Shown here: piece after piece, positions 20,472-56,900 of the stretch
Layout of the letters: each line of letters starts with the position of its first letter
How positions within the stretch are numbered: the first letter of the stretch is position 1
Source: Nemertoderma westbladi
Taxonomy: Eukaryota > Animalia > Xenacoelomorpha
Assembly: GCA_032718475.1 (NCBI GenBank)
Contig: JAUCBJ010003066.1
Coordinates: 1 to 64,000, forward strand
DNA length: 64,000 nt
Direction of reading: 5' to 3'
Program-made: the position numbers and the translations under genes
The notes under the pieces: generated by a model
Seen by the model: only the letters and a program-made list of their open reading frames with translations
Database searches by the model: none
Told to the model about the DNA's origin: nothing

Positions 20472-20784
20472 TCAAGAACTCCCATGTATAGGTAGGTACT
20501 CCAAGTACAAAGACAATATAAATACGGTCTCGTCCACCTCTACTTCAGCCTTCTGTATCGCATTCAACCTTTTCTTCAGTAACTCCAACTGAACCTTCTC
20601 GGCGGGCGTCAGATAGTTCCTAACCTCCTGTATTTGTTCAGGGTCTGCATTGTCCTGGGTCAACTGTTCTACTATAGAATCAACCTTGGTTCCCTGATCC
20701 AACAACCTTCTATTGTCCGAAGCCTCTTTCTCGCGCCGTAACATTAGATTCAACAAGGTCTTGTAACAATGTCCGAGAGCCACT
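20472..20784 (-). CDS. POLR3C: POLR3C exon 5 (terminal)
   Basis: Acceptor tttcctacag|A GTG GCT CTC GGA CAT TGT TAC AAG. Reads (R)VALGHCYKTLLNLMLRREKE...VDETVFILSLYLEYLPIHGSS*. Confidence 0.92.
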
Positions 20785-29700: not shown

Positions 29701-32700
29701 ATATAAAACAATGTCTGTGAGTCGCGCCACTGTATAGGAAACAATATAAAACAATGTATGTGAGCCGCGCCACTCTATAGCAAACAATATAAAACAATGT
29801 CTGTGAGCCGCGCCACTCTATAGGAAACAATATAAAACAATGTCCGAGTGCCACTCTATAAGAAACAATATAAAACAGTGTCTGTGAGTCGCGCCACTGT
29901 ATAGGAAACAATATAAAACAATGTCTGTGAGCCGCGCCACTGTATAGGAAACAATATAAAACAATGTCTGTGAGCCACTCTATAGGAAACAATATAAAAC
30001 AATGTCTGTGAGTCGCGCCACTGTATAGGAAACAATATAAAACAATGTCTGTGAGTCGCGCCACTGTATAGGAAACAATATAAAACAATGTCTGTGAGCC
30101 ACTCTATAGGAAACAATATAAAACAATGTCTGTGAGTCGCGCCACTGTATAGGAAACAATATAAAACAATGTCTGTGAGTCGCGCCACTGTATAGGAAAC
30201 AATATAAAACAATGTATGTGAGCCGCGCCACTCTATAGGAAACAATATAAAACAATGTCTGTGAGCCGCGCCACTGTATAGGAAACAATATAAAACAATG
30301 TCTGTGAGTCGCGCCACTGTATAGGAAACAATATAAAACAATGTCTGTGAGTCGCGCCACTGTATAGGAAACAATATAAAACAATGTCTGTGAGCCACTC
30401 TATAGGAAACAATATAAAACAATGTCTGTGAGCCGCGCCACTGTATAGGAAACAATATAAAACAATGTCTGTGAGTCGCGCCACTGTATAGGAAACAATA
30501 TAAAACAATATCTGTGAGCCGCGCCACTCTATAGGAAACAATATAAAACAATGTCTGTGAGCCACTCTATAGGAAACAATATAAAACAATGTCTGTGAGC
30601 CACTCTATAGGAAACAATATAAAACAATGTCCGAGGGCCACTCTATAGGAAACAATATAAAACAATGTCTGTGAGCCGCGCCACTCTATAGGAAACAATA
30701 TAAAACAATGTCTGTGAGCCGCGCCACTCTATAGGAAACAATATAAAACAATGTCTGTGAGCCGCGCCACTCTATAGGAAACAATATAAAACAATGTTTG
30801 TGAGCCGCGCCACTGTATAGGAAACAATATAAAACAATGTCTGTGAGCCGCGCCACTGTATAGGAAACAATATAAAACAATGTCTGTGAGCCACTCTATA
30901 GGAAACAATATAAAACAATGTCTGTGAGCCGAGCCACTCTATAGGAAACAATATAAAACAATGTCAGTGAGCCGCGCCACTCTATAGGAAACAATATAAA
31001 ACAATGTCCGAGTGCCACTCTATAGGAAACAATATAAAACAATGTCTGTGAGCCGAGCCACTCTATAGGAAACAATATAAAACAATGTCAGTGAGCCGCG
31101 CCACTCTATAGGAAACAATATAAAACAATGTCCGAGTGCCACTCTATAGGAAACAATATAAAACAATGTCTGTGAGCCGCGCCACTCTATAGGAAACAAT
31201 ATAAAACAATGTCTGTGAGCCGCGCCACTCTATAGGAAACAATATAAAACAATGACTGTGAGCCACTCTATAGGAAACAATATAAAACAATGTCTGTGAG
31301 CCGAGCCACTCTATAGGAAACAATATAAAACAATGTCTGTGAGCCGCGCCACTCTATAGGAAACAATATAAAACAATGTCTGTGAGCCACTCTATAGGAA
31401 ACAATATAAAACAATGTCTGTGAGCCGCGCCACTCTATAGGAAACAATATAAAACAATGTCTGTGAGCCGCTCTATAGGAAACAATATAAAACAATGTCT
31501 GTGAGCCACTCTATAGGAAACAATATAAAACAATGACTGTGAGCCACTCTATAGGAAACAATATAAAACAATGTCTGTGAGTTGCGCCACTGTATAGGAA
31601 ACAATATAAAACAATGTCTGTGAGCCGCGCCACTCTATAGGAAACAATATAAAACAATGTCTGTGAGTCGCGCCACTCTATAGGAAACAATATAAAACAA
31701 TGTCTGTGAGTCGCGCCACTGTATAGGAAACAATATAAAACAATGTCTGTGAGCCGCGCCACTGTATAGGAAACAATATAAAACAATGTCTGTGAGCCGC
31801 GCCACTGTATAGGAAACAATATAAAACAATGTCTGTGAGCCACTCTATAGGAAACAATATAAAACAATGTCTGTGAGCCGCGCCACTCTATAGGAAACAA
31901 TATAAAACAATGTCCGAGGGCCACTCTATAGGAAACAATATAAAACAATGTCTGTGAGCCACTCTATAGGAAACAATATAAAACAATGTCTGTGAGCCAC
32001 TCTATAGGAAACAATATAAAACAATGTCTGTGAGTCGCGCCACTGTATAGGAAACAATATAAAACAATGTCTGTGAGCCGCGCCACTCTATAGGAAACAA
32101 TATAAAACAATGTCTGTGAGCCGCGCCACTCTATAGGAAACAATATAAAACAATGACTGTGAGCCACTCTATAGGAAACAATATAAAACAATGTCTGTGA
32201 GTTGCGCCACTGTATAGGAAACAATATAAAACAATGTCTGTGAGCCGCGCCACTCTATAGGAAACAATATAAAACAATGTCTGTGAGTCGCGCCACTCTA
32301 TAGGAAACAATATAAAACAATGTCTGTGAGTCGCGCCACTGTATAGGAAACAATATAAAACAATGTCTGTGAGCCGCGCCACTGTATAGGAAACAATATA
32401 AAACAATGTCTGTGAGCCGCGCCACTGTATAGGAAACAATATAAAACAATGTCTGTGAGCCACTCTATAGGAAACAATATAAAACAATGTCTGTGAGCCG
32501 CGCCACTCTATAGGAAACAATATAAAACAATGTCCGAGGGCCACTCTATAGGAAACAATATAAAACAATGTCTGTGAGCCACTCTATAGGAAACAATATA
32601 AAACAATGTCTGTGAGCCACTCTATAGGAAACAATATAAAACAATGTCTGTGAGTCGCGCCACTGCATAGGAAACAATATAAAACAATGTCTGTGAGCCG

Positions 32701-35700
32701 CGCCACTCTATAGGAAACAATATAAAACAATGTCTGTGAGCCGCGCCACTCTATAGGAAACAATATAAAACAATGACTGTGAGCCACTCTATAGGAAACA
32801 ATATAAAACAATGTCTGTGAGTTGCGCCACTGTATAGGAAACAATATAAAACAATGTCTGTGAGCCGCGCCACTCTATAGGAAACAATATAAAACAATGT
32901 CTGTGAGTCGCGCCACTCTATAGGAAACAATATAAAACAATGTCTGTGAGTCGCGCCACTGTATAGGAAACAATATAAAACAATGTCTGTGAGCCGCGCC
33001 ACTGTATAGGAAACAATATAAAACAATGTCTGTGAGCCGCGCCACTGTATAGGAAACAATATAAAACAATGTCTGTGAGCCACTCTATAGGAAACAATAT
33101 AAAACAATGTCTGTGAGCCGAGCCACTCTATAGGAAACAATATAAAACAATGTCTGTGAGCCACTCTATAGGAAACAATATAAAACAATGTCTGTGAGTC
33201 GCGCCACTGTATAGGAAACAATATAAAACAATGTCTGTGAGCCGCGCCACTGTATAGGAAACAATATAAAACAATGTCTGTGAGCCACTCTATAGGAAAC
33301 AATATAAAACAATGTCTGTGAGCCGCGCCACTCTATAGGAAACAATATAAAACAATGTCTGTGAGCCGCGCCACTCTATAGGAAACAATATAAAACAATG
33401 TCTGTGAGCCGCGCCACTCTATAGGAAACAATATAAAACAATGTCTGTGAGCCGCGCCACTCTATAGGAAACAATATAAAACAATGTCTGTGAGCCACTC
33501 TATAGGAAACAATATAAAACAATGTCAGTGAGCCATTCTATAGGAAACAATATAAAACAATGTATGTGAGCCACTCTATAGGAAACAATATAAAACAATG
33601 TCTGTGAGCCGCGCCACTGTATAGGAAACAATATAAAACAATGTCTGTGAGCCACTCTATAGAAAACAATATAAAACAATGTCTGTGAGCCACTCTATAG
33701 GAAACAATATAAAACAATGTCAGTGAGCCATTCTATAGGAAACAATATAAAACAATGTATGTGAGCCACTCTATAGGAAACAATATAAAACAATGTCTGT
33801 GAGCCGCGCCACTGTATAGGAAACAATATAAAACAATGTCTGTGAGTCACTCTATAGGAAACAATATAAAACAATGACTGTGAGCCACTCTATAGGAAAC
33901 AATATAAAACAATGTCTGTGAGCCACTCTATAGGAAACAATATAAAACAATGTCTGTGAACCGCGCCACTCTATAGGAAACAATATAAAACAATGTCTGT
34001 GCACCGCGCCACTCTATAGGAAACAATATAAAACAATGTCTGTGAGCCACTCTATAGGAAACAATATAAAACAATGTCTGTGAGCCACTCTATAAGAAAC
34101 AATATAAAACAATGTCTGTGAGCCGCGCCACTCTATAGGAAACAATATAAAACAATGTCTGTGAGCCACTCTATAGGAAACAATATAAAACAATGTCTGT
34201 GAGTCACTCTATAGGAAACAATATAAAACAATGTCTGTGAATCACTCTATAGGAAACAATATAAAACAATGACTGTGAGCCACTCTATAGGAAACAATAT
34301 AAAACAATGTCTGTGAGCCACTCTATAGGAAACAATATAAAACAATGTCTGTGAACCACTCTATAGGAAACAATATAAAACAATGTCTGTGAGCCACTCT
34401 ATAGGAAACAATATAAAACAATGTCTGTGAGCCGCGCCACTCTATAGGAAACAATATAAAACAATGTCTGTGAGCCACTCTATAGGAAACAATATAAAAC
34501 AATGTCCGAGTGCCACTCTATAGGAAACAATATAAAACAATGTCTGTGAGCCACTCTATAGGAAACAATATAAAACAATGTCTGTGAGCCACTCTATAGG
34601 AAACAATATAAAACAATGTCTGTGAGCCACTCTATAGGAAACAATATAAAACAATGTCTGTGAGCCACTCTATAGGAAACAATATAAAACAATGTCTGTG
34701 AGCCGCGCCACTCTATAGGAAACAATATAAAACAATGTCTGTGAGCCACTCTATAGGAAACAATATAAAACAATGACTGTGAGCCGCGCCATTCTATAGG
34801 AAACAATATAAAACAATGTCTGTGAGCCACTCTATAGGAAACAATATAAAACAATGTCTGTGAGCCACTCTATAGGAAACAATATAAAACAATGACTGTG
34901 AGCCACTCTATAGGAAACAATATAAAACAATGTCTGTGGGCCACTCTATAGGAAACAATAGAAAACAATGTCTGTGAGCCACTCTATAGGAAACAATATA
35001 AAACAATGTCTGTGAGCCACTCTATAGGAAACAATATAAAACAATGTCTGTGGGCCACTCTATAGGAAACAATATAAAACAATGTCTGTGAGCCACTCTA
35101 TAGGAAACAATATAAAACAATGTCCGAGTGCCACTCTATAGGAAACAATATAAAACAATGTCTGTGAGCCACTCTATAGGAAACAATATAAAACAATGTC
35201 TGTGAGCCACTCTATAGGAAACAATATAAAACAATGTCCGAGTGCCACTCTATAGGAAACAATATAAAACAATGTCTGTGAGCCACTCTATAGGAAACAA
35301 TATAAAACAATGTCTGTGAGCCACTCTATAGGAAACAATATAAAACAATGACTGTGAGCCACTCTATAGGAAACAATATAAAACAATGTCTGTGAGCCAC
35401 TCTATAGGAAACAATATAAAACAATGTCTGTGAGCCGCGCCACTCTATAGGAAACAATATAAAACAATGTCTGTGAGCCACTCTATAGGAAGCAATATAA
35501 AACAATGTCTGTGAGCCACTCTATAGGAAACAATATAAAACAATGACTGTGAGCCATTCTATAGGAAACAATATAAAACAATGTCTGTGAGCCGCTCTAT
35601 AGGAAACAATATAAAACAATGTATGTCTGTGAGCCGCGCCACTCTATAGGAAACAATATAAAACAATGTCCGAGTGCCACTCTATAGGAAACAATATAAA

Positions 35701-38700
35701 ACAATGACAGTGAGCCGCGCCACTCTATAGGAAACAATATAAAACAATGTATGTGAGCCACTCTATAGGAAACAATATAAAACAATGTCTGTGAGCCGCG
35801 CCACTCTATAGGAAACAATATAAAACAATGACTGTGAGCCACTCTATAGGAAACAATATAAAACAATGACTGTGAGCCGCGCCACTCTATAGGAAACAAT
35901 ATAAAACAATGTCTGTGAGCCACTCTATAGGAAACAATATAAAACAATGACTGTGAGCCGCGCCACTCTATAGGAAACAATATAAAACAATGTATGTGAG
36001 CCACTCTATAGGAAACAATATAAAACAATGTCTGTGAGCCGCGCCACTCTATAGGAAACAATATAAAACAATGTCTGTGAGCCGCGCCACTCTATAGGAA
36101 ACAATATAAAACAATGTCTGTGAGCCGCTCTATAGGAAACAATATAAAACAATGTCTGTGAGCCACTCTATAGGAAACAATATAAAACAATGTATGTGAG
36201 CCACTCTATAGGAAACAATATAAAACAATGTCTGTGAGCCGCGCCACTCTATAGGAAACAATATAAAACAATGACTGTGAGCCACTCTATAGGAAACAAT
36301 ATAAAACAATGACTGTGAGCCGCGCCACTCTATAGGAAACAATATAAAACAATGTATGTGAGCCACTCTATAGGAAACAATATAAAACAATGACTGTGAG
36401 CCGAGCCACTGTATAGGAAACAATATAAAACAATGTCTGTGAGCCACTCTATAGGAAACAATATAAAACAATGACTGTGAGCCGCGCCACTCTATAGGAA
36501 ACAATATAAAACAATGTATGTGAGCCACTCTATAGGAAACAATATAAAACAATGTCTGTGAGCCGCGCCACTGTATAGGAAACAATATAAAACAATGACT
36601 GTGAGCCGCGCCACTCTATAGGAAACAATATAAAACAATGTATGTGAGCCACTCTATAGGAAACAATATAAAACAATGTCTGTGAGCCGCGCCACTGTAT
36701 AGGAAACAATATAAAACAATGTCTGTGAGCCGCTCTATAGGAAACAATATAAAACAATGTCTGTGAGCCACTCTATAGGAAACAATATAAAACAATGTCT
36801 GTGAGCCGCGCCACTCTATAGGAAACAATATAAAACAATGTCTGTGAGCCACTCTATAGGAAACAATATAAAACAATGTCTGTGAGCCACTCTATAGGAA
36901 ACAATATAAAACAATGTCTGTGAGCCACTCTATAGGAAACAATATAAAACAATGTCTGTGAGCCGCTCTATACGAAACAATATAAAACAATGTCTGTGAG
37001 CCACTCTATAGGAAACAATATAAAACAACGTCTGTGAGTCGCGCCACTGTATAGGAAACAATATAAAACAATGTCTGTGAGCCGCGCCACTCTATAGGAA
37101 ACAATATAAAACAATGTCTGTGAGCCGCGCCACTCTATAGGAAACAATATAAAACAATGTCTGTGAGCCACTCTATAGGAAACAATATAAAACAATGTCT
37201 GTGAGCCGCTCTATAGGAAACAATATAAAACAATGTCCGAGTGCCACTCTATAGGAAACAATATAAAACAATGTCTGTGAGCCACTCTATAGGAAACAAT
37301 ATAAAACAATGTCTGTGAGCCGAGCCACTCTATAGGAAACAATATAAAACAATGTCTGTGAGCCACTCTATAGGAAACAATATAAAACAATGTCTGTGAG
37401 CCACTCTATAGGAAACAATATAAAACAATGTCTGTGAGCCGCGCCACTCTATAGGAAACAATATAAAACAATGTCTGTGAGCCATTCTATAGGAAACAAT
37501 ATAAAACAATGTCTGTGAGCCGCGCCACTCTATAGGAAACAATATAAAACAATGTCTGTGAGCCACTCTATAGGAAACAATATAAAACAATGTCTGTGAG
37601 CCACTCTATAGGAAACAATATAAAACAATGTCTGTGAGCCACTCTATAGGAAACAATATAAAACAATGACTGTGAGCCGCGCCATTCTATAGGAAACAAT
37701 ATAAAACAATGTCTGTGAGCCACTCTATAGGAAACAATATAAAACAATGTCTGTGAGCCGCGCCACTCTATAGGAAACAATATAAAACAATGTCTGTGAG
37801 CCACTCTATAGAAAACAATATAAAACAATGTCTGTGAGCCGCGCCACTCTATAGGAAACAATATAAAACAATGTCTGTGAGCCGCGCCACTCTATAGGAA
37901 ACAATATAAAACAATGTCTGTGAGCCACTCTATAGGAAACAATATAAAACAATGTCTGTGAGCCGCGCCACTCTATAGGAAACAATATAAAACAATGTCT
38001 GTGAGCCGCTCTATAGGAAACAATATAAAACAATGTCTGTGAGCCGCGCCACTCTATAGGAAACAATATAAAACAATGTCTGTGAGCCGCTCTATAGGAA
38101 ACAATATAAAACAATGTCTGTGAGCCGCGCCACTCTATAGGAAACAATATAAAACAATGTCTGTGAGCCACTCTATAGGAAACAATATAAAACAATGTCT
38201 GTGAGCCGCGCCACTCTATAGGAAACAATATAAAACAATGTATGTGAGCCACTCCATAGGAAACAATATAAAACAATGTCTGTGAGCCGCGCCACTCTAT
38301 AGGAAACAATATAAAACAATGTCTGTGAGCCGCGCCACTCTATAGGAAACAATATAAAACAATGTCTGTGAGCCGCGCCACTCTATAGGAAACAATACAA
38401 AACAATGTCTGTGAGCCGCTCTATAGGAAACAATACAAAACAATGTCTGTGAGCCGCGCCACTCTATAGGAAACAATATAAAACAATGTCTGTGAGCCAC
38501 TCTATAGGAAACAATATAAAACAATGTCTGTGAGCCGCGCCACTCTATAGGAAACAATATAAAACAATGTCTGTGAGCCACTCTATAGGAAACAATATAA
38601 AACAATGTCTGTGAGCCACTCTATAGGAAACAATATAAAACAATGTCTGTGAGCCGTGCCACTCTATAGGAAACAATATAAAACAATGTCTGTGAGCCAC

Positions 38701-41700
38701 TCTATAGGAAACAATATAAAACAATGTCTGTGAGCCACTCTATAGGAAACAATATAAAACAATGTCTGTGAGTCGCTCTATAGGAAACAATATAAAACAA
38801 TGACTGTGAGCCGCGCCACTCTATAGGAAACAATATAAAACAATGACTGTGAGCCGCGCCACTGTATAGGAAACAATATAAAACAATGACTGTGAGCCAC
38901 TCTATAGGAAACAATATAAAACAATGTCTGTGAGCCGAGCCACTCTATAGGAAACAATATAAAACAATGTCTGTGAGCCACTCTATGGGAAACAATATAA
39001 AACAATGTCTGTGAGCCGCGCCACTCTATAGGAAACAATATAAAACAATGTCTGTGAGCCGCGCCACTCTATAGGAAACAATATAAAACAATGTCTGTGA
39101 GCCGCGCCACTCTATAGGAAACAATATAAAACAATGACTGTGAGCCACTCTATAGGAAACAATATAAAACAATGTCTGTGAGCCGAGCCACTCTATAGGA
39201 AACAATATAAAACAATAAATGTGAGCCACTCTATAGGAAACAATATAAAACAATGTCTGTGAGCCGCGCCACTCTATAGGAAACAATATAAAACAATGTC
39301 TGTGAGCCACTCTATGGGAAACAATATAAAACAATGTCTGTGAGCCGCGCCACTCTATAGGAAACAATATAAAACAATGTCTGTGAGCCACTCTATAGGA
39401 AACAATATAAAACAATGTCTGTGAGCCACTCTATAGGAAACAATATAAAACAATGTCTGTGAGCCACTCTATAGGAAACAATATAAAACAATGTCCGAGT
39501 GCCACTCTATAGGAAACAATATAAAACAATGTCTGTGAGCCGCGCCACTCTATAGGAAACAATATAAAACAATGACTGTGAGCCGCGCCACTCTATAGGA
39601 AACAATATAAAACAATGTCTGTGAGCCACTCTATAGGAAACAATATAAAACAATGTCTGTGAGCCACTCTATGGGAAACAATATAAAACAATGTCTGTGA
39701 GCCGCGCCACTCTATAGGAAACAATATAAAACAATGTCTGTGAGCCACTCTATAGGAAACAATATAAAACAATGTCTGTGAGCCACTCTATAGGAAACAA
39801 TATAAAACAATGTCTGTGAGCCACTCTATAGGAAACAATATAAAACAATGTCTGTGAGCCGTGCCACTCTATAGGAAACAATATAAAACAATGTCTGTGA
39901 GCCACTCTATAGGAAACAATATAAAACAATGTCTGTGAGCCACTCTATAGGAAACAATATAAAACAATGTCTGTGAGTCGCTCTATAGGAAACAATATAA
40001 AACAATGACTGTGAGCCGCGCCACTCTATAGGAAACAATATAAAACAATGACTGTGAGCCGCGCCACTGTATAGGAAACAATATAAAACAATGACTGTGA
40101 GCCACTCTATAGGAAACAATATAAAACAATGTCTGTGAGCCGAGCCACTCTATAGGAAACAATATAAAACAATGTCTGTGAGCCACTCTATGGGAAACAA
40201 TATAAAACAATGTCTGTGAGCCGCGCCACTCTATAGGAAACAATATAAAACAATGTCTGTGAGCCGCTCTATAGGAAACAATATAAAACAATGTCTGTGA
40301 GCCGCGCCACTCTATAGGAAACAATATAAAACAATGACTGTGAGCCACTCTATAGGAAACAATATAAAACAATGTCTGTGAGCCGAGCCACTCTATAGGA
40401 AACAATATAAAACAATAAATGTGAGCCACTCTATAGGAAACAATATAAAACAATGTCTGTGAGCCGCGCCACTCTATAGGAAACAATATAAAACAATGTC
40501 TGTGAGCCACTCTATGGGAAACAATATAAAACAATGTCTGTGAGCCGCGCCACTCTATAGGAAACAATATAAAACAATGTCTGTGAGCCACTCTATAGGA
40601 AACAATATAAAACAATGTCTGTGAGCCACTCTATAGGAAACAATATAAAACAATGTCTGTGAGCCACTCTATAGGAAACAATATAAAACAATGTCCGAGT
40701 GCCACTCTATAGGAAACAATATAAAACAATGTCTGTGAGCCGCGCCACTCTATAGGAAACAATATAAAACAATGACTGTGAGCCGCGCCACTCTATAGGA
40801 AACAATATAAAACAATGTCTGTGAGCCACTCTATAGGAAACAATATAAAACAATGTCTGTGAGCCACTCTATGGGAAACAATATAAAACAATGTCTGTGA
40901 GCCGCGCCACTCTATAGGAAACAATATAAAACAATGTCTGTGAGCCACTCTATAGGAAACAATATAAAACAATGTCTGTGAGCCGCTCTATAGGAAACAA
41001 TATAAAACAATGTATGTCTATGAGCCACTCTATAGGAAACAATATAAAACAATGTCTGTGAGCCGCGCCACTCTATAGGAAACAATATAAAACAATGTCT
41101 GTGAGCCACTCTATAGGAAACAATATAAAACAATGTCTGTGAGCCACTCTATAGGAAACAATATAAAACAATGTCTGTGAGCCGCGCCACTCTATAGGAA
41201 ACAATATAAAACAATGTCTGTGAGCCACTCTATAGGAAACAATATAAAACAATGTCTGTGAGCCACTCTATAGGAAACAATATAAAACAATGTCTGTGAG
41301 CCACTCTATAGGAAACAATATAAAACAATGTCTGTGAGCCACTCTATAGAAAACAATATAAAACAATGACTGTGAGCCACTCTATAGGAAACAATATAAA
41401 ACAATGACTATACTTTTTTCCCTAGACGTCACCCACCCACCTGACTACTTTCTGGATATCGACCGAGAAGTAATATAGAGTCCGACTTGGCGACCGATCG
41501 GATGAGCGAGGAATCTCCCGCAAGTAAACGTAAGATTCCAGGAACATCTGGTACAATAACTGTTTGGTTTCCTTCGGCGGCAATAAAGCTATCGATTCTA
41601 TCTGCAATAAATATATTACAGTCAAAGAGCTTCTAACCAAAACACTAAACTAATTCTCATTTTATTTGTGCCCCCCCCCCCTGATCCCTTCTCACCTGTT

Positions 41701-43866: not shown

Positions 43867-44084
43867 ATGCACAAAATGTCGCGCCAAGAACAAAATACCC
43901 AGATCGAAATTTCTGTTAAACAACAGAAGAGAATCGATGATAATAAAACGGCAGCGCTTAAACGCCGCGATGCGCGTCTGAAACGCCGAGCCAATACATC
44001 GGACGTCGCAGAAGCAACGTCGAAAATAGGGCGAAATGAAGATGGTACCGGTAGTGATATGACGTCACTCGCTGCAAACGTGAG
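43867..44084 (+). CDS. XPA: XPA exon 1
   Basis: [20 protein letters not shown] resembles the XPA N-terminal helix. The phase-2 donor AG|gttagt matches the phase of exon 2. Confidence 0.85.
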
Positions 44085-47000
44085 GTTAGTTGTTTACTTG
44101 TTTAGAGTTTACTCAAAAGTCACACAGATCCATGCAGGCGATTGCGATAGGCCATCTAATATCTGCATATCAGCTACCGCAGTAGTGTCAATGATGTCAG
44201 AAATATATGATGAAAGTTGAAAGTTTGTAAGAGCCTGTCTGGCTGGTCAAAGCTAAAACTGAGATTTATACATTCCGAATCCATTTCTTGTTTGAGGTTT
44301 GATTAACATTGGCGATTGCAGTAAGTTTTACTTTTGTTGACTAGCTAGGCCCTACACAACACATATATCCATTAGTAAAAATCATATTATAAACTTCACT
44401 TTATTTTTACTTTCATTTTCTGAAAGATTTTGTTTATTTCGGTTTATTTTTAGCGGGAATGTTTCGAGTATCTCCAAACAGATCCCAATCCCCAGACCTG
44501 TCGTTGACACAAACGCCGGATTCTTTCTAGAAGACGAACAACCCGTAGCTCATACGTCCTCCTCTGGTTCCCATAGTAACCGGAACTACCCGAAAGAGGA
44601 CAAACCCAATCCGTTGACTTCCGAAAGATTCCAATGTTTGGAATGCCAAGAGAGATTCTTGTATTCTTTCTTGAGTCGGAACTTTGGGTTCAACGTATGC
44701 GATGGTTGCAGGTAATATTTAATATTATATGTAGAGCGACGTTATGGACGTTATATGCCGTTATTTAGGTTAGGGACGTTATGGCCGTTATTTACTGACG
44801 TTACTACCGTTATTTAGGGACGTTATAACCGTTATTTAGGGACGTTATAACCGTTATTTAGGGACGTTATGACCGTTATTTAGGGACGTTATAACCGTTA
44901 TTTAGGGACGTTATGACCGTTATTTAGGGACGTTAAACCGTTATTTAGGGACGTTATAACCGTTATTTAGGGACGTTATGACCGTTATTTAGGGACGTTA
45001 TAACCGTTATTTAGGGACGTTATGGCCTTTATTTAAGGACGTTATAACCGTTATTTAGGGACGTTATATGACAGTTATTTAGGGACGTTATGGCCGTTAT
45101 TTAGGGACGTTATAACCGTTATTTAGGGACGTTATGACCGTTATTTAGGGACGTTATGACCGTTATTTAGGGACGTTACAACCGTTATTTAATGACGTTA
45201 TAACCGTTATTTAGGGACGTTATATGACCGTTATTTAGGGCGGACGTTATGGCCTTTTCTTCGGGACGTTATGTCCGTTATTTAGGGACGTTATAACCGT
45301 TATTTAATGACGTTATAACCGTTATTTAGGGACGTTATATGACCGTTATTTAGGGACGTTATGGCCGTTATTTAGGGACGTTATAACCGTTATTTACTGA
45401 CGTTATAACCGTTATTTACTGACGTTATAACCGTTATTTAGGGACGTTATGACCGTTATTTAGGGACGTTATAACCGTTATTTAATGACGTTATAACCGT
45501 TATTTAAGGACGTTATGGCCTTTATTTAGGGACGTTATATGACCGTTATTTAGGGACGTTATGACCGTTATTTAGGGACGTTATATGACCGTTATTTAGG
45601 GACGTTATACGACCGTTATTTAGGGACGTTATGACCGTTATTTAGGGACGTTATATGACCGTTATTTAGGGACGTTATAACCGTTATTTAATTGCGTTAT
45701 AACCGTTATTTAAGGACGTTATGGCCTTTATTTAGGGACGTTATATGGCCGTTATTTAGGGACGTTATAACCGTTATTTAATGACGTTATAACCGTTATT
45801 TAAGGACGTTATGGCCTTTATTTAGGGACGTTATATGACCGTTATTTAGGGACGTTATGACCGTTATTTAGGGACGTTATATGACCGTTGTTTAGGGACG
45901 TTATATGACCGTTATTTAGGTTAGGGACGTTATGACCGTTATTTAGGGACGTTATATGACCGTTATTTAGGGACGTTATATGACCGTTATTTAGGGACGT
46001 TCTAACCGTTATTTAGGGAAGTTATAACCGTTATTTATGGATGTTATGACCGTTATTTAGGGATGTTATGACCGTTATTTGGGGACGTTATGACCGTTAT
46101 TTAGGGACGTTATATGACAGTTATTTAGGGATGTTATGGCCGTTATTTAGGGATGTTATGGCCGTTATTTAGGGATGTTATGACCGTTATTTGGCCGTTA
46201 TTTAGGGATGTTATGGCCGTTATTTAGGGATGTTATAGCCGTTATTTAGGGAAGTTATGGCCGTTATTTAGGGATGTTGTGGCCGTTATTTAGGGAAGTT
46301 ATGGCCTTTATTTATAAGGTTAGGTTTAGATTAATAATTAACCAATCAGGTTGTTTAATCCACTTCTAGAGACGACAGACACAAACTTATCACTAAAACC
46401 AACGCTAAACAGACTTACCTTATTAAAGATGCCGACCTCGATAGACGGGAGCCGAGGTTGAGTTTCATTTCCCGTAAGAATCCCCATAACGATACTTGGG
46501 GGGAGATGAGGTTGTACTTGGAATCCCAGGTATTTAATTTATATTTTTTATTCCCATACTTATTCTGTTTACAACTGCCCCCTGGAATTAAAATAAGGTC
46601 GGCGTTACGGCCCCCAATGTGAGCGGATTCAATTCCGCCTCACTATCCCCATAAAGTTGGGAAGTGGCGCTTTTTCAGCAATATTGGGGATACGAGATTA
46701 ATCACAACTAATCTCGTATCGCACCCAATAACGGGGACAACACACAGCCCCGAAGGCCACACAAAGGGAGGTTAGAGGTCAAACCACCTCGAGAGGGAAA
46801 GTAACAGCAGCGGGGGTGGAAGCACTCCAACAGAGGTGGGAGCCGAGAATTAGATTATTAGCCAATAGGGGCGAGGAAAGCATCCGCTAGATAGAGAGGC
46901 CAAAGTAGTGTAGGGATGACAATCATATATTATATTGCATACCACTACCGGTCAATTCAGTTTACTCAGTCATCTAGCGCAGATCGGTGACATTTCGTAC

Positions 47001-50000
47001 CGTCACCGTCACTACCGGTACAACATCTTATATTATATTTGCATACACTCTGACAACTGTGCTATTATATTCTATATCAGTATCTGCATTAAGCTATAAC
47101 AATATTAGAACGATAACAACAAACTATCTTTTTCCCAATTACACGGTGACGCGTAACGTAATAATCCGTTCGGGATCCCCTGATCCCGTCACACCCAAAC
47201 CGGGGGGGTTCATCTTTATAACCATAGCAGAACATCAGCCCTGTACATCAATTAATAATGCGAACTGTATGTAGCTAATAATGCGTACTGTATGCAGCTA
47301 ATAATGCGTACTGTGTGTAACTAATAATGCGAACTGTATGTAACTAATAATGCGTACTGTATGTAGCTAATAATGCGTACTGTATGTAGCTAATAATGCG
47401 TACTGTATGTAGCTAATAATGCGAACTGTATGTAGCTAATAATGCGTACTGTATGTAGCTAATAATGCGTACTGTATGTAGCTAATAATGCGAACTGTAT
47501 GTAGCTAATAATGCGTACTGTATGCAGCTAATAATGCGTACTGTGTGTAACTAATAATGCGAACTGTATGTACTAATAATGCGTACTGTATGTAGCTAAT
47601 AATGCGTACTGTATGTAGCTAATAATGCGTACTGTATGTAGCTAATAATGCGTACTGTATGTAGCTAATAATGCGTACTGTATGTAGCTAATAATGCGTA
47701 CTGTATGCAGCTAATAATGCGTACTGTGTGTAACTAATAATGCGAACTGTATGTAACTAATAATGCGTACTGTATGTAGCTAATAATGCGTACTGTATGT
47801 AGCTAATAATGTGTACTGTATGCAGCTAATAATGCGTACTGTATGTATCTAATAATGCGTACTGTGTGTAACTAATAATGCGAACTGTATGTAACTAATA
47901 ATGCGTACTGTATGTAACTAATAATGCGTACTGTATGCAGCTAATAATGCGTACTGTATGTAACTAATAATGCGTACTGTATGTAGCTAATAATGCGTAC
48001 TGTATGTAGCTAATAATGCGTACTGTATGTAGCTAATAATGCGTACTGTATGTAGCTAATAATGCGTACTGTATGTAGCTAATAATGCGTACTGTATGTA
48101 GCTAATAATGCGAACTGTATGTAGCTAATAATGCGTACTGTATGTAGCTAATAATGCGTACTGTATGTAGCTAATAATGCGTACTGTATGTAGCTAATAA
48201 TGCATACTGTATGTAGCTAATAATGCGTACTGTATGTAGCTAATAATGCGTACTGTATGTAGCTAATAATGCGTACTGTATGTAGCTAATAATGCGTACT
48301 GTATGTAGCTAATAATGCATACTGTATGTAGCTAATAATGCGTACTGTATGTAGCTAATAATGCGTACTGTATGTAGCTAATAATGCGTACTGTATGTAG
48401 CTAATAATGCGTACTGTATGTAGCTAATAATGCGTACTGTATGTAGCTAATAATGCGTACTGTATGTAGCTAATAATGCGTACTGTATGTAGCTAATAAT
48501 GCGTACTGTATGTAGCTAATAATGCGTACTGTATGTAGCTAATAATGCGTACTGTATGTAGCTAATAATGCGTACTGTATGTAGCTAATAATGCGTACTG
48601 TATGTAGCTAATAATGTGTACTGTATGCAGCTAATAATGCGTACTGTATGTAGCTAATAATGCGTACTGTATGTAGCTAATAATGCGTACTGTATGTAGC
48701 TAATAATGCGAACTGTATGTAGCTAATAATGCGTACTGTATGTAGCTAATAATGCGTACTGTATGTAGCTAATAATGCGTACTGTATGTAGCTAATAATG
48801 CGTACTGTATGTAGCTAATAATGTGTACTGTATGCAGCTAATAATGCGTACTGTATGTAGCTAATAATGCGTACTGTATGTAGCTAATAATGCGTACTGT
48901 ATGTAGCTAATAATGCGAACTGTATGTAGCTAATAATGCGTACTGTATGTAGCTAATAATGCGTACTGTATGTAGCTAATAATGCGTACTGTATGTAGCT
49001 AATAATGCGTACTGTATGTAACTAATAATGCGAACTGTATGTAACTAATAATGCGTACTGTATGTAGCTAATAATGCGTACTGTATGTAGCTAATAATGC
49101 GTTCTGCTGTTATAATTCACTTTGCAGTTTACCCCCATGGGAAGAATACCAGGTTTTCACTCAGAACAGAAGGGCTGAATCAAACCAAAACAATAAACAA
49201 ATTTGTATCTGTACAGATAGAAGAAATAAGCTATAATTATAATGCACTTGATGAGAAATTTAAAAAATATAAATTCGTCATGTATGAAATGACAATAAAA
49301 TTTCAACCGAGAAGTGAAAACCTGGTATTCTTAACATTGGCGAATTTTTAGGAATAGAGATTTTATTTTATTTCTTCAAATACCTAGATGGAAGGGAAGA
49401 AAGGCAAATTATTTTCCTAACAATGGCGGACTATTTTCTACCTAATGACCCCTGAATGAGTAATTAAAGGCCATGATACACCACAGGAGCGGCGAGCGGC
49501 AGCGGCCGCGGCAAGCGGCCACTTTTTAAAAATAGAACACATTATTTTCTATGGGTGATGATACACCACAAATGGCTGCTGGCGCTCGCGGCTCCTATCG
49601 TGTATCATACTAAAAGTCGCCGCTCACATCGGCCGCTCGTCGCGGCCGCCCGCCGCTGCCGCTCGCCGCTCCTATAGTGTATCATACTAAAAGTCGCCGC
49701 TCACATCGGCCGCTCGCCGCGGCCGCCCGCCGCTGCCGCTCGCCGCTCCTGTGGTGTATCATGGCCTTAACCTTCCTCGTTGAACTGGATATTAATAACT
49801 GGTAAAACAGGTTTACAATATTTTTATTACTGATTTCTGTTTTTAACAATTTAACCATTTTTCTGACGTTTTACTTTCTGACGGTTTTCATTATCATTTT
49901 TCTGTTCTGGTTCTATCGGCAACCGGCCGGTACTAATTTCCTGTTTGACAATCGAGCGAGGTTAAGTATATGGGTCATTGGGAAAGAAGTTGTTTGTTTT

Positions 50001-53000
50001 CCATGTAATAAGTTAAAATTAAAATTTCCGTTAAAATTTGTGTGAAGTAAATTTTTAAATTGTGGAATTTTAATAAGGTTTAGTAACTAGATTGTCCCTA
50101 TTATGTTCAGGAACTATTGTTCTAAAGTTTCGCTGACTATTTTGTTCTTACTAAATAAATAAATTTGAGTTGGGCTGTTCTTACTAAGTTGACAACCATT
50201 TTTGTTCTCATTAGGTTGGAAACTATTGTCTGTTCTCACTAGTTTCGGGAACTATTTTGTTCTCACTAGTTTCGGGAACTATTTTGTTCTCAATAGGTTC
50301 GGGAACTAATTTGTTCTCACTGGGTTGGAATCTATTTTTGTTCGCACTAGTTTCGGGAACTATTTTGTTCGCACTAGGTTCGGGAACTATTTTGTTCTCA
50401 CGAGGTTGGAATCTATTTTTGTTCGCACTAGTTTCGGAAACTATTTTTTTCGCACTAGGTTCGGGAACTATTTTGTTCTCACGAGGTTGGAATCTATTTT
50501 TGTTCGCACTAGTTTCGGGAACTATTTTGTTCGCACTAGGTTCGGGAACTATTTTGTTCTCACGAGGTTGGAATCTATTTTTGTTCGCACTAGTTTCGGG
50601 AACTATTTTGTTCTCACTAGGTTCGGGAACTATTTTGTGCTCAATAGGTTCGGGAACTATTTTGTTCTCAATAGGTTCGGGAACTATTTTGTTCTCACGA
50701 GGTTGGAATCTATTTTTGTTCGCACTAGTTTCGGGAACTATTTTGTTCGCACTAGGTTCGGGAACTATTTTGTTCTCACTGGGTTGGAATCTATTTTTGT
50801 TCGCACTAGTTTCGGGAACTATTTTGTTCGCACTAGGTTCGGGAACTATTTTGTTCTCACGAGGTTGGAATCTATTTTTGTTCGCACTAGTTTCGGGAAC
50901 TATTTTGTTCTCACTAGGTTCGGGAACTATTTTGTGCTCAATAGGTTCGGGAACTATTTTGTTCTCAATAGGTTCGGGAACTATTTTGTTCTCACTAGGT
51001 TCGGGAACTATTTTGCTCTCAATAGGTTCGGGAACTATTTTGCACTCACAAGGTTCGGGAACTATTTTGTTCGCACTAGGTTCGGGAACTATTTTGTTCT
51101 CACTAGGTTCGGGAACTATTTTGTTCTCACTGGGTTGGAAACTATTGTTTGTTCTCACTAGTTTCGAGAACTATTTTGTTCTCAATAGGTTCGGGAACTA
51201 TTTCAGCTCACATGTTGACAACAATTTTTGTTCTCAATAGGTTGGAAACTATTGTTTGTTCGCTCTAGTTTCGGGAACTGTTTTGTTCTCACTAGGTTCG
51301 GGAACTATTTTGTGCTCAATAGGTTCGGGAACTATTTTGTTCTCAATAGGTTCGGGAACTATTTTGTTCTCACTAGGTTCGGGAACTATTTTGCTCTCAA
51401 TAGGTTCGGGAACTATTTTGCACTCACTAGGTTCGGGAACTATTTTGTTCGCACTAGGTTCGGGAACTATTTTGTTCTCACTAGGTTCGGGAACTATTTT
51501 GTTCTCACTGGGTTGGAAACTATTGTTTGTTCTCACTAGTTTCGAGAACTATTTTGTTCTCAATAGGTTCGGGAACTATTTCAGCTCACATGTTGACAAC
51601 AATTTTTGTTCTCAATAGGTTGGAAACTATTGTTTGTTCGCTCTAGTTTCGGGAACTGTTTTGTTCTCACTAGGTTCGGGAAAAATTTTGTTCTCACGAG
51701 GTTGGAATCTATTTTTGTTCGCACTAGTTTCGGGAACTATTTTGTTCTCACTGGGTTGGAAACTATTGTTTGTTCTCACTAGTTTCGAGAACTATTTTGT
51801 TCTCAATAGGTTCGGGAACTATTTCAGCTCACATGTTGACAACAATTTTTGTTCTCAATAGGTTGGAAACTATTGTTTGTTCGCTCTAGTTTCGGGAACT
51901 GTTTTGTTCTCACTAGGTTCGGGAAAAATTTTGTTCTCACGAGGTTGGAATCTATTTTTGTTCGCACTAGTTTCGGGAACTATTTTGTTCGCACTAGGTT
52001 CGGGAACTATTTTGTTCTCACGAGGTTGGAAACTATTTTTGTTCTCACTAGTTTCGAGAACTATTTTGTTCTCAATAGGTTCGGGAACTATTTCAGCTCA
52101 CATGTTGACAACAATTTTTGTTCTCGATAGGTTGGAAACTATTGTTTGTTCGCTCTAGTTTCGGGAACTGTTTTGTTCTCACTAGGTTCGGGAACTATTT
52201 TGTTCTTAATAGGTTCGGGAACTATTTTGTTCTCACTAGGTTCGGGAACTTTTTTGTTCGCACTAGGTTCGGGAACTATTTTGTTCTCACTAGGTTCGGG
52301 AACTATTTTGTTCTCACGAGGTTGGAAACTATTTTTGTTCTCACTAGTTTCGGAAACTATTTTGTTCTCAATAGGTTCGGGAACTATTTCAGCTCACATG
52401 TTGACAACAATTTTTGTTCTCAATAGGTTGGAAACTATTGTTTGTTCGCTCTAGTTTCGGGAACTGTTTTGTTCTCACTAGGTTCGGGAAAAATTTTGTT
52501 CTCACGAGGTTGGAATCTATTTTTGTTCGCACTAGTTTTGGGAACTATTTTGTTCGCACTAGGTTCGGGAACTATTTTATTCTCACTATGTTCGGGAACT
52601 ATTTTGTTCTCACGAGGTTGGAAACTATTTTTGTTCTCACTAGTTTCGGAAACTATTTTGTTCTCAATAGGTTCGGGAACTATTTCAGCTCACATGTTGA
52701 CAACAATTTTTGTTCTCAATAGGTTGGAAACTATTGTTTATTCGTTCTAGTTTCGGGAACTGTTTTGTTCTCACTAGGTTCGGGAACTATTTTGTTCTCA
52801 ATAGGTTCGGGAACTATTTTGGCTCACTATGTTGACAACAAATTTTTGTTCTCAATAGGTTGGAAACTATTGTTTGTTCGCTCTAGTTTCGGGAACTATT
52901 TTGTTCTCACTAGGTTCGGGAACTATTTTGTGCTCAATAGGTTCGGGAACTATTTTGTTCTCAATAGGTTCGGGAACTATTTTGTTCTCAATAGGTTCGG

Positions 53001-55834
53001 GAACTAATTTGTTCTCACTGGGTTGGAATCTATTTTTGTTCGCACTAGTTTCGGGAACTATTTTGTTCGCACTAGGTTCGGGAACTATTTTGTTCTCACG
53101 AGGTTGGAAACTATTTTTGTTCTCACTAGTTTCGGAAACTATTTTGTTCTCAATAGGTTCGGGAACTATTTCAGCTCACATGTTGACAACAATTTTTGTT
53201 CTCAATAGGTTGGAAACTATTGTTTGTTCGCTCTAGTTTCGGGAACTGATTTGTTCTCACTAGGTTCGGGAAAAATTTTGTTCTCACGAGGTTGGAATCT
53301 ATTTTTGTTCGCACTAGTTTCGAGAACTATTTTGTTCGCACTAGGTTCGGGAACTATTTTGTTCTCACGAGGTTGGAAACTATTTTTGTTCTCACTAGTT
53401 TCGAGAACTATTTTGTTCTTACTAGGTTCGGGAATAATTTTGTTCTCACGAGGTTGGAATCTATTTTTGTTCGCACTAGTTTGGGAACTATTTTGTTCGC
53501 ACTAGGTTCGGGAACTATTTTGTTCGCACTATGTTCGGGAACTATTTTGTTCTCACGAGGTTGGAAACTATTTTTGTTCTCACTAGTTTCGGAAACTATT
53601 TTGTTCTCACTAGGTTTGGGGACTATTTTGTTCTCACTAGGTTCGGGAACTATTTTGTTCTCATTAGGTTCGGGAACTATTTTGTTCTCAATAGGTTCGT
53701 GAACTATTTTGTTCTCAATAGGTTCGGGAACTATTTTGTTCTCACTAGGTTCGGGAACTGTATTGTTCTCACTAGATTCGGGAACTATTTCAGCTCACAT
53801 GTTGACAACAATTTTTGTTCTCAATAGGTTGGAAACTATTGTTTATTCGTTCTAGTTTCGGGAACTGTTTTGTTCTCACTAGGTTCGGGAACTATTTTGT
53901 TTTCAATAGGTTCGGGAACTATTTTGTTCTCACTAGGTTCGGGAACTATTTTGTTCTCAATAGGTTCGTGAACTATTTTGTTCTCAATAGGTTCGGGAAC
54001 TATTTTGTTCTCAATAGGTTCGTGAACTATTTTGTTCTCACTAGGTTCGGGAACTATTTTGTTCTCGCTAGGTTTGGGGACTATTTTGTTCTCACTAGGT
54101 TCGGGAACTATTTTGTTCTCATTAGGTTCGGGAACTATTTTGTTCTCTCTAGGTTTGGGAACTATGTTGTTCTCACTATGTTCGGGAACTATTTTGTTCT
54201 CAATAGGTTCGGGAACTATTTTGTTCTCACTAGGTTCTGGAACTATTTTGTTCTCACTAGGTTCGGGAACTATTTTTGTTCTCACTAGTTTCGGAAACTA
54301 TTTTGTTCTCAATAGATTCGGGAACTATTTCAGCTCACATGTTGACAACAATTTTTGTTCTCAATAGGTTGGAATCTATTTTTGTTCGCACTAGTTTCGG
54401 GAACTATTTTGTTCGCACTATGTTCGGGAACTATTTTGTTCTCACGAGGTTGGAAACTATTTTTGTTCTCACTAGTTTCGGAAACTATTTTGTTCTCAAT
54501 AGATTCGGGAACTATTTCAGCTCACATGTTGACAACAATTTTTGTTCTCAATAGGTTGGAAACTATTGTTTATTCGTTCTAGTTTCGGGAACTGTTTTGT
54601 TCTCACTAGGTTCGGGAACTATTTTGTTTTCAATAGGTTCGGGAACTATTTTGTTCTCACTAGGTTCGGGAACTATTTTGTTCTCAATAGGTTCGTGAAC
54701 TATTTTGTTCTCAATAGGTTCGGGAACTATTTTGTTCTCAATAGGTTCGTGAACTATTTTGTTCTCACTAGGTTCGGGAACTATTTTGTTCTCACTAGGT
54801 TTGGGGACTATTTTGTTCTCACTAGGTTCGGGAACTATTTTGTTCTCATTAGGTTCGGGAACTATTTTGTTCTCTCTAGGTTTGGGAACTATGTTGTTCT
54901 CACTATGTTCGGGAACTATTTTGTTCTCACTAGGTTCTGGAACTATTTTGTTCTCACTAGGTTCGGGAACTATTTTTGTTCTCACTAGTTTCGGAAACTA
55001 TTTTGTTCTCAATAGATTCGGGAACTATTTCAGCTCACATGTTGACAACAATTTTTGTTCTCAATAGGTTGGAAACTATTGTTTATTCGTTCTAGTTTCG
55101 GGAACTGTTTTGTTCTCACTAGGTTCGGGAACTATTTTGTTTTCAATAGGTTCGGGAACTATTTTGTTCTCACTAGGTTCGGGAACTATTTTGTTCTCAA
55201 TAGGTTCGTGAACTATTTTGTTCTCAATAGGTTCGGGAACTATTTTGTTCTTAATAGGTTCGTGAACTATTTTGTTCTCACTAGGTTCGGGAACTATTTT
55301 GTTCTCACTAGGTTTGGGGACTATTTTGTTCTCACTAGGTTCGGGAACTATTTTGTTCTCATTAGGTTCGGGAACTATTTTGTTCTCTCTAGGTTTGGGA
55401 ACTATGTTGTTCTCACTATGTTCGGGAACTATTTTGTTCTCACTAGGTTCTGGAACTATTTTGTTCTCACTAGGTTTGGGATCTATTTTGTTCTCACTAG
55501 GTTCGGGAACTATTTTGTTCTCACTAGGTTTGGGAACTATTTTGTTCTCACTAGGTTCGGGAACTATTTTCATCTCAATAGGTTCGGGAACTATTTTGTT
55601 CTCACTAGGTTGGGGAACTATTTTGTTCCCTATAGGTACGGGATCTATTTTGTTCTCACTAGGTTCGAGAACTATTTTGTTCTCACTACGTTCGGGAACT
55701 ATTTTATTCTCAATAGGTTCGGGAACGAGCGCTTATTGTGTGGGAAAGTTGGGAGGCATTAGAGGAGGCCAAGGAAAAACAAACAGAAAATCGACAGGAA
55801 TTGAAACAGAAAAAATTTGACAAAAAATTAAAAG
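43867..55834 (+). CDS. XPA: DNA repair protein XPA, 3'-incomplete. Exons 43867-44084, 44454-44711, 46370-46529, 55717-55834
   Basis: [12 protein letters not shown]4 zinc finger [85 protein letters not shown]...[10 protein letters not shown]. Intron phases are consistent. The start could be the ATG at 43867 or at 43876. Confidence 0.95.
44454..44711 (+). CDS. XPA: XPA exon 2 (ERCC1-binding-like motif and zinc finger)
   Basis: tttttag|...[12 protein letters not shown]...CLEC...CDGC(R)|gtaata. Confidence 0.93.
44740..46312. repeat. 22-bp satellite, about 70 diverged copies, in XPA intron 2
   Basis: Unit GGGACGTTATGACCGTTATTTA, with 24-bp variants. Confidence 0.92.
46370..46529 (+). CDS. XPA: XPA exon 3
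   Basis: cttctag|(R)[53 protein letters not shown]|gtattt. Confidence 0.95.
47252..49102. repeat. 23-bp satellite, about 80 copies, in XPA intron 3
   Basis: Unit CTAATAATGCGTACTGTATGTAG. Confidence 0.95.
49468..49767. mobile_element. PIF/Harbinger-type MITE (300 bp)
   Basis: TIR AGGCCATGATACACCACAGGAGCGGCGAGCGGC, TAA target duplication on both sides, short internal tandem duplication. Confidence 0.8.
50195..55726 (+). repeat. 27-bp satellite, about 200 copies, ending in XPA exon 4; unit is the 3' splice site plus the first 10 nt of exon 4
   Basis: Unit TATTTTGTTCTCACTAG|GTTCGGGAAC, compared with the true junction TATTTTATTCTCAATAG|GTTCGGGAACGAGCG. Degenerate copies extend to about 50100. 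Confidence 0.96.
55717..55834 (+). CDS. XPA: XPA exon 4
   Basis: [39 protein letters not shown]|gttaga. Not in the ORF track in this frame. Confidence 0.93.
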
Positions 55835-56102
55835 GTTAGAGTTGAATAATTACTGACTATTAACAGGTATAGGTAGGTATAGTACTACTTCATCAGTATT
55901 ATTTGTTAATGTTGTTACTTTTTTTTGTCTTATCCTATTGTTTACGCTGCTCATAAAAAGTTTAGTGTTTCCGATTCCGATAGCTATACTTTGTTGTTCC
56001 GGCCACGGTTAGGTTATTATGTCCTGCTGGTCCAGGATATGTTGACATCTACTGAACCAATAGTGAATATAATAAGTGGTAATAGTAGCAAATAATTAAT
56101 TG

Positions 56103-56900
56103 TACTACTACTACTGGGTCGAGAGAGCTCGGACAGCGGAAATGAGATCCTTCCAGGCTTCCCGATTCTCCATAGTTGTCGCAATTTCGTTTCTCCCAAG
56201 TTCAGTATCCCTTTCAAGTTGATCTATATATGTTATGGCCGGTCGTCCACGACTACGCTTTCCATGAGTTGGTTGCCAGAAAAGTAGATCTGGTATGACC
56301 TCGTCTTTACTTCGCCAGCAGTGCCCACTGAATCTTAATCTGCGTTCACGGAGGGTGGTTGATACAGGTGGTATTGTACCATAAAGCTCGGCGTTTGTCA
56401 TGTGTTGTCTCCAGCTGATGTTTAGGGCTGCCTTTAGTAGTCTTGTGTAGCAACCATCAATTCGTTGTTCAAGTGATTTAGTCAGTGTCCAGGTCTCACC
56501 CCCATATAAAAATACACTTTCCACTGTGGCTCGAAAGAACTTAGTCTCCAGGTGCCTGGAGAGATCTGATTTCCAGATGGTATCCATTTTTGATAGAGCT
56601 TGTTGTTTGTTGATTAATATCAATGGTTGTCAAGTTTCCATCAACATTAAAGGTCATGAATTCGGTCTTGGTAGCATTTATATGCAATCCAACCTCCTTA
56701 GCAGCCCTCTCCACTTTATTTAGTAGAAGCTGTGCATCTGCTAGCGTATTAGAGAGCAGGGCGATGTCATCCGCAAAGTCGGTGTCTGTGACTGTAGTTG
56801 CCGGATATCTACTACTTCTGCGTTCTTTTAGTGTGAATCCCAGGTCTTCACCCATTGTGGCCGTCCTCATTGCGTAATCCACCAGAACAATTACAAATAG
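56103..56900 (-). mobile_element. 5'-truncated RTE-like non-LTR retrotransposon (LINE) fragment, antisense within XPA intron 4
   Basis: RT motif DTDFADDIALL, KEVGLHINATKTEFM, ATVESVFLYGGETWTLT, RERRLRFSGHCWR, RGRP. Frameshift/deletion near 56600-56620. (AGT)n tail right after the stop. Confidence 0.88.

What the first reader, a model, noticed from the sequence alone, without database searches (positions are those of the whole stretch)
50195..55730. XPA intron 3 ends in about 200 copies of its own AG|GT acceptor junction (ratchet-like decoys with a built-in stop)
Seen: the 27-bp unit TATTTTGTTCTCACTAG|GTTCGGGAAC is the acceptor plus the first 10 nt of XPA exon 4, and only the final copy runs on into [11 protein letters not shown]. 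Splicing exon 3 to a consensus decoy reads VRELFCSH* because the next unit's TAG is in frame, which creates a premature stop. Each intact decoy is pyrimidine tract-AG|GT, so joining exon 3 (CCCAG) regenerates CAG|GTTCGG. Established: this is the layout of recursive splice sites. Donors in this window are degenerate (GTTAGT, GTAATA, GTATTT, GTTAGA, GTGGGT, GTGAAC). Inference: mis-splicing to a decoy might be rescued by re-splicing, or the array could act as an NMD-linked rheostat. This is the same phenomenon as in POLR3C but with an unrelated sequence.
Basis: partly seen in the sequence, partly recalled or inferred. Interest (0 to 1): 0.85.

Follow-up and report, generated by a model that had tools for sequence, protein, structure and literature searches.

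The report
Giant "mirage" splice-acceptor repeat in XPA
An intron of the DNA-repair gene XPA in an animal ends in about 200 spare tandem copies of its own intron-exon border, yet the main assembled transcript likely joins straight to the last, true copy, so this is a very large and likely harmless example of a repeat type already known from lancelets rather than a stepwise splicing ladder.

Summary
The array is real: 204 in-register copies of the XPA intron 3/exon 4 border, 203 of them decoys; 118 of 203 keep YAG|GT and the copy next to the true site has lost its AG. One run that behaves as spliced RNA (X4, one study, contigs only) most likely joins exon 3 directly to the last copy. It meets the definition of the lancelet "mirage" minisatellite, but with about 200 copies against 2-9 in the cases I read. 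The recursive-splicing reading is not supported: AG|GT is no more conserved than the rest of the unit, GT comes from a conserved valine codon, no good donor lies inside the array, and the twin array in POLR3C is AG|AG. The stop is automatic. Best mechanism (inferred): cross-exon definition picks the acceptor nearest exon 4's donor. Contigs cannot exclude short-lived intermediates, and an unexplained branch lies at exon-4 base +5. The scan has already noted the same kind of array in at least ten other genes of this genome (unreviewed notes).

The parts
43876..44084 (+). XPA coding exon 1 (from the ATG)
   Evidence: open frame, weak tblastn match
44454..44711 (+). XPA exon 2 (zinc finger)
   Evidence: Pfam XPA_N; its end is the loose end joined to exon 3 in X4
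46370..46529 (+). XPA exon 3, donor GTATTT, phase 0
   Evidence: Pfam XPA_C; X4 contig covers exactly this exon
46530..55716 (+). XPA intron 3, 9187 nt
47253..49106 (+). unrelated 23-bp minisatellite in the same intron, not at an exon border
50094..50194 (+). about four degenerate copies at the left edge of the array
50195..55726 (+). 27-bp array of the acceptor plus first 10 nt of exon 4; 203 decoys and the true copy; 61 unit variants in nested higher-order blocks
55687..55689 (+). penultimate copy with AG lost (TAC); nearest intact decoy starts at 55663
   Evidence: same letters in X1, X2, X3 contigs
55717..55834 (+). XPA exon 4 (118 nt), donor GTTAGA
   Evidence: tblastn; one X4 contig covers 55715-55834
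20765..41406 (-). twin array in POLR3C intron 4 (20,656 nt): about 490-510 copies of its acceptor and exon start, AG|AG
20472..20784 (-). POLR3C last coding exon, entered from the last copy of its array
   Evidence: Pfam RPC3_helical; open-frame model

Best explanation
The array is a giant 'mirage' minisatellite, likely born by tandem duplication of the 27 bases spanning the XPA intron 3/exon 4 border and likely tolerated because the spliceosome defines exon 4 across the exon and so would use only the last acceptor. Shown: the unit is the border; the copies have diverged in nested blocks; every decoy would give a stop. Inferred from contig geometry: the main transcript joins exon 3 to the last copy. 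Inferred from established splicing rules: only the last copy is followed by the full exon and lies closest to the exon 4 donor (118 nt), while decoys carry 10 nt of exon and have no good donor of their own; loss of the penultimate AG may help. Growth is inferred to be by slippage or unequal crossing-over, always on the intron side because that leaves the coding exon intact. Rare slips onto a decoy would give premature stops and would likely be cleared by NMD, as a by-product rather than as regulation.
For: X4 record 17 covers 46368-46531 and carries the end of exon 2 as its loose end, so the run is spliced. X4 record 25 covers 55715-55834 and begins with 24 letters that do not lie on the array. 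The two records overlap by exactly 30 letters if they flank one exon 3/exon 4 junction, and they run unbroken through exon-4 bases +1 to +4 and +6 onward, where 194 of the 197 array AGs would branch. No excess conservation of AG|GT. 65% of the window lies in eight long arrays with unrelated units, of which two sit on verified exon borders. POLR3C tolerates 404 YAG decoys with no GT, one of them identical to the true site over 40 nt. Lancelet mirages contain AG/GT signals and do not disturb splicing (PMC3087553, PMC3902484 passages). With long flanking introns, sites closest across the exon are favoured (PMC9225289 abstract, section 9).
Against: RNA support is one run from one study, not on record as RNA, held as contigs that drop rare forms; the junction letters were never printed. 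The two contigs are broken at the junction, which implies a branch at exon-4 base +5 (or exon-3 base -27) that I could not see; 3 array decoys and 165 sites in the next array would branch there. The nearest intact decoys would make exons of 172-307 nt, a normal size, so size alone does not exclude them. For 3' sites PMC9225289 reports an overall upstream preference that is only reduced in the long/long class. The conservation test has low power. Two of eight arrays on exon borders is more than random placement gives (P=0.012; two of six in the gene span, P=0.04; window chosen for this feature), so origin or survival may be tied to borders.
Confidence: 0.75

Rival explanations
1. Leaky decoys with NMD: exon 3 is joined to decoys or to another downstream acceptor at a measurable rate, the products carry stops and are degraded, and copy number or unit variants therefore tune XPA output between alleles.
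For: 178 of 178 AG decoys give a stop. The X4 contigs break at the exon 3/4 junction, as a second joined form would cause. An unreviewed note reports splicing from a variant copy inside a donor array of this genome (e1-10614089; not checked).
Against: The break is at +5, not at +11 (79 sites) or +4 (40 sites) where the common decoys would branch. A stop follows from any shifted acceptor here: 0 of 404 POLR3C decoys stay open either, and with a 27-nt unit in a phase-0 intron the acceptor's own TAG is in frame by geometry.
Confidence: 0.13
2. Recursive ladder: exon 3 is spliced to a decoy, the junction regenerates a donor, and re-splicing reaches the true acceptor.
For: 118 of 203 decoys are YAG|GT. 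The regenerated donor matches U1 at 6 of 9, as does the real exon 4 donor; other XPA donors score 7. The core changed slightly less often than average (7 against 11.3 events, not significant). Intermediates would be invisible in mRNA contigs (PMC8605326 passages).
Against: Known ratchet points have ultraconserved motifs and need a cryptic exon with its own downstream donor; here the motif is not conserved above background and the best GT inside the array scores 6 of 9, in 8 places. The same donor is regenerated at the true junction, where its use would delete exon 4. GT is explained by a Val codon. POLR3C has the layout without GT.
Confidence: 0.07
3. The border is duplicated, but the assembly has inflated the copy number well beyond the true one.
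For: No read set spanning the array was examined; the contigs seen confirm only its right end.
Against: 61 unit variants in nested blocks that themselves carry differences look like real turnover. Summed contig depth on the last units is about 50-99 times that of the adjacent unique exon in X1, X2 and X3, which the tool says is no copy number but fits many copies.
Confidence: 0.05

Closest known systems
Amphioxus 'mirage' minisatellites (globins BflGb6 and BflGb9, Adh3, troponin C, PGBD5); PMC3087553 and PMC3902484, passages read; the original Adh3 paper not seen; supplements not opened
   Same: Tandem copies of an intron-exon border; BflGb6 repeats the intron 3' end plus exon start, as here; many but not all copies keep AG/GT; splicing reported as normal; edge copies escape homogenisation.
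   Different: 203 spare copies over 5.5 kb (about 500 over 20.6 kb in POLR3C) against 3-6 for BflGb6 and 2-7 for PGBD5; Adh3 copy numbers not seen. Length polymorphism not tested here. The animal was not identified.
Human F7 intron 7 37-bp VNTR; PMC1557585, abstract and Discussion read
   Same: Identical splice sites in a minisatellite; only the copy touching the exon is used although the others are functional.
   Different: Donor side, 5-9 copies. Here the decoys are acceptors that are transcribed before the true site, so the earliest available site must be passed over.
Recursive splice sites (Drosophila ratchet points, RS-exons); PMC8605326, passages read
   Same: Juxtaposed acceptor and GT in a long intron.
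   Different: Ratchet points are single, conserved, with a cryptic exon and its own donor; here they are copies of a coding border, unconserved, without a donor of their own.
Intron gain by tandem duplication of an AG/GT proto-splice site (Rogers model, as cited in PMC3087553)
   Same: A duplicated segment holding AG|GT.
   Different: Here the duplicated site is an existing acceptor and no new intron is evident.

Membership tests
mirage minisatellite | Tandem repeat whose unit spans an exon-intron border | tested here: met
mirage minisatellite | The authentic border is the terminal copy next to the exon | tested here: met
   only 55717 gives the open XPA frame
mirage minisatellite | Many but not all copies keep splice signals | tested here: met
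   118 of 203 YAG|GT, 25 of 203 without AG
mirage minisatellite | Regular splicing is not disturbed | tested here: inconclusive
   main X4 contigs fit a direct exon 3/exon 4 join, with an unexplained branch; one run, contigs only
mirage minisatellite | Length instability between alleles or cells | not testable with these tools
   no spanning reads; nested blocks show past turnover
recursive splice site | Acceptor directly followed by GT | tested here: met
   118 of 203 decoys
recursive splice site | Regenerated donor strong enough to be used | tested here: inconclusive
   6 of 9 U1 matches against 6-7 for real XPA donors; crude score, consensus recalled
recursive splice site | Motif conserved above its surroundings | tested here: not met
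   8.3% against 9.1% of copies changed; 7 of 76 events, P=0.20; within-array test only, no close relative found
recursive splice site | Cryptic exon with its own downstream donor | tested here: not met
   no GT at 7 of 9 or better in the array; 8 sites at 6 of 9; the last few decoys could borrow the exon 4 donor
recursive splice site | Intermediates, saw-tooth coverage or lariats in nascent RNA | not testable with these tools
   only assembled contigs were offered

The most novel reading that the evidence does not exclude
In this animal, arrays of hundreds of live acceptors are used at a measurable rate: exon 3 is first joined to a decoy (or to the AG|GT array in the next intron) and is then either re-spliced from the regenerated donor or destroyed by NMD, so that repeat number acts as a heritable dial on a DNA-repair gene, and on many other genes of the genome.
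Probability: 0.1. Interest if true: 0.85.

Novelty: new member of a known kind. Interest (0 to 1): 0.33.

Why it matters
As an element it is a known kind. Its value is as a natural experiment: 118 intact acceptors are transcribed before the true one and appear to be passed over, which first-AG scanning and intron-centric proximity do not predict and cross-exon definition does. Raw nascent RNA from this animal would test that at many loci at once. Such arrays also break assemblies and gene models, and supply raw material for intron gain.

Tried and rejected
No whole genome is held, so no genome-wide donor model or count. No RNA holder listed; X4 is treated as RNA only from its behaviour. X4 has no cover on 55664-55712 or in the unique part of intron 3 next to exon 3: not used as evidence, since contigs drop rare forms and a variant decoy could fall under the 90% cut. 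X8 laid nothing. RNA structure as the selector: rejected; the pyrimidine tract of the true site is unpaired 0.42 against 0.40 for decoys, 38 of 118 decoys being more open, and the true YAG is predicted less open; POLR3C gave no difference either (57 of 405 sites sampled). A designed stop: rejected as geometry. Selected loss of the penultimate AG: cannot be claimed, as 25 of 203 copies lack AG and the POLR3C penultimate copy keeps it. Placing the organism: POLR3C and fibrinogen-domain searches found nothing; XPA exon 3 gave 11 relatives at 58-70%, named ones being echinoderms and a snail, which shows an animal but not which. Metagenome scan gave 4 distant loci (46-73%); only L004 was checked for repeats and had no comparable array. 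Pfam found nothing significant in 13 short frames near the other arrays. Literature: searches returned nothing, 39 one unrelated paper, 16 the F7 paper, 28 and 52 the same two mirage papers; none of these showed arrays of this size, but the library lacks most subscription papers.

Full report
Observation. The window holds eight long tandem arrays with unrelated units, 41,638 of 64,000 bases. The one in question runs from about 50195 to 55726 with a 27-bp period. In register it has 204 junction positions; the last, 55717, is the start of XPA exon 4. Four exons give one open frame, intron 3 (9187 nt) being in phase 0; exons 2 and 3 hit Pfam XPA_N and XPA_C and exon 4 aligns to homologues. The last XPA exon was not found in the window. 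Of 203 decoys, 118 are YAG|GT, 178 keep an AG and 25 have lost it, including the copy next to the true site. All 178 AG decoys meet a stop before exon 4 ends. The copies fall into 61 variants arranged in nested blocks, as expected of real turnover. Contigs from three DNA runs of two studies match the last two units and exon 4 without a difference; either study may be the source of the assembly, and the full length was not checked.

What the RNA shows. No holder is on record as RNA, but run X4 behaves as spliced RNA: one contig covers exactly exon 3 and carries the end of exon 2 as its loose end, another covers exactly exon 4 and starts with 24 letters that do not lie on the array. If both flank one exon 3/exon 4 junction they overlap by exactly 30 letters, the overlap of neighbouring contigs in a 31-mer graph (word length taken from the tool text; graph behaviour is my knowledge). 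I therefore infer that the main transcript uses the last acceptor; the junction letters were not printed. The contigs are unbroken at the positions where 194 of 197 array AGs would branch. They are, however, broken between exon-4 bases +4 and +5. Three variant decoys (54234, 54934, 55447), 165 sites in the 34-bp array of the next intron and two single sites would branch there; so would a left-over error path or a join at exon-3 base -27. I could not see the other branch. Contigs cannot show short-lived or degraded forms, so this neither proves nor refutes recursion.

The recursive reading. For it: the layout, and a regenerated donor that matches the U1 consensus (recalled) at 6 of 9, equal to the real exon 4 donor. 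Against it: the four letters AG|GT change in 8.3% of copies against 9.1% elsewhere in the unit, and take 7 of 76 inferred events against 11.3 expected (P=0.20, low power). GT is the start of a Val codon, Val being present in 6 of the 7 homologues printed. Known ratchet points are ultraconserved and need a cryptic exon with its own donor (PMC8605326 passages); no GT in the array reaches 7 of 9. The true junction regenerates the same donor for its first 10 nt, so re-splicing would also delete exon 4 (logic from the sequence; the exon junction complex is reported to repress this). POLR3C, on the other strand, has the same layout over 20.6 kb with AG|AG: 491 junctions counted, 405 with YAG, one inner copy identical to the true site over 40 nt. 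The layout is thus tolerated without any ratchet. The in-frame stop needs no design: a 27-nt unit in a phase-0 intron puts the acceptor's own TAG in frame, and 0 of 404 POLR3C decoys stay open either.

How it most likely works. Tandem duplication of the border, expansion on the intron side, and choice of the last acceptor by cross-exon definition: only it is followed by the full exon and lies 118 nt from the exon 4 donor. In human data, sites closest across the exon are favoured when flanking introns are long, while the classical result for short introns favours the upstream acceptor (PMC9225289 abstract, section 9 and passages); for 3' sites that paper reports a reduced upstream preference rather than a full reversal in the long/long class. 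The nearest intact decoys would give exons of 172-307 nt, so competition and exon content, not size alone, must decide; this step is inferred. Predicted RNA structure does not single out the true site, though three near-modal units fold better than shuffles (z -3.5), which might favour slippage.

What is known. Earlier notes of this scan pointed me to the lancelet 'mirages', and I checked the papers: tandem duplications of exon-intron borders in globin, Adh3, troponin C and PGBD5 genes, many with AG/GT signals, reported not to disturb splicing (PMC3087553 and PMC3902484 passages; supplements not opened, original Adh3 paper not seen). The human F7 minisatellite is the donor-side mirror image (PMC1557585 abstract and Discussion). 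This array meets the structural definition. It differs in scale: about 200 and 500 copies against 2-9 in the cases I read. My searches showed no report of arrays this large, in a library that lacks most subscription papers. The scan's unreviewed notes list ten other such loci in this genome; I did not check them. Within the window, two of eight arrays sit on verified borders, more than random placement gives (P=0.012, or 0.04 for two of six in the gene span), but the window was chosen for the feature.

Verdict. Real, striking in size, a new member of a known kind, most likely without a regulatory role (0.75). The recursive ladder is unlikely (0.07) but untested at the RNA level, and the branch at +5 is the lead worth following. 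Interest 0.33.

Noticed in passing
window 57141-62752: 34-bp array, 165 copies, each with AG|GTTCA on the + strand. Short open frames at both ends (57057-57179, 62705-62770) share the unit's peptide, as if an exon-internal AG|GT had been duplicated (Rogers-type intron gain). No Pfam hit. These sites would explain the X4 branch at exon-4 base +5.
   Followed up: partly
window 62977-64000: 31-bp array running off the window: donor-like GTTAGT on the + strand, branch-like motif followed by AG on the - strand. No gene assigned.
   Followed up: partly
window 14458-18666: 46-bp array, 91 copies, repeating the last codons and stop of a fibrinogen-domain frame (13426-14490): a border repeat at a stop codon rather than a splice site.
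   Followed up: partly
window 43097 (-) and 43876 (+): POLR3C and XPA lie head to head with start codons 779 bases apart, suggesting a shared promoter.
   Followed up: no
window 56100-56940: Broken LINE-like reverse transcriptase fragment (Pfam RVT_1) on the - strand in XPA intron 4, with very high summed contig depth in all four runs laid.
   Followed up: no
window 368-2965: 866-aa frame on the - strand with DUF1759, likely the gag region of an LTR retrotransposon (family assignment recalled).
   Followed up: no
window 44738-46314 and 47253-49106: Two further intronic minisatellites in XPA (22 and 23 bp) that do not overlap exon borders.
   Followed up: partly
window 46604-47220: Dispersed repeat in XPA intron 3: many divergent contigs lie on it in DNA runs X1 and X3.
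   Followed up: no
window 20765-41406: In the POLR3C array 84 of 491 junctions have lost the AG (TAC), and only 4 of 491, the true site among them, are CAG; all four lie within 800 bases of the exon.
   Followed up: partly
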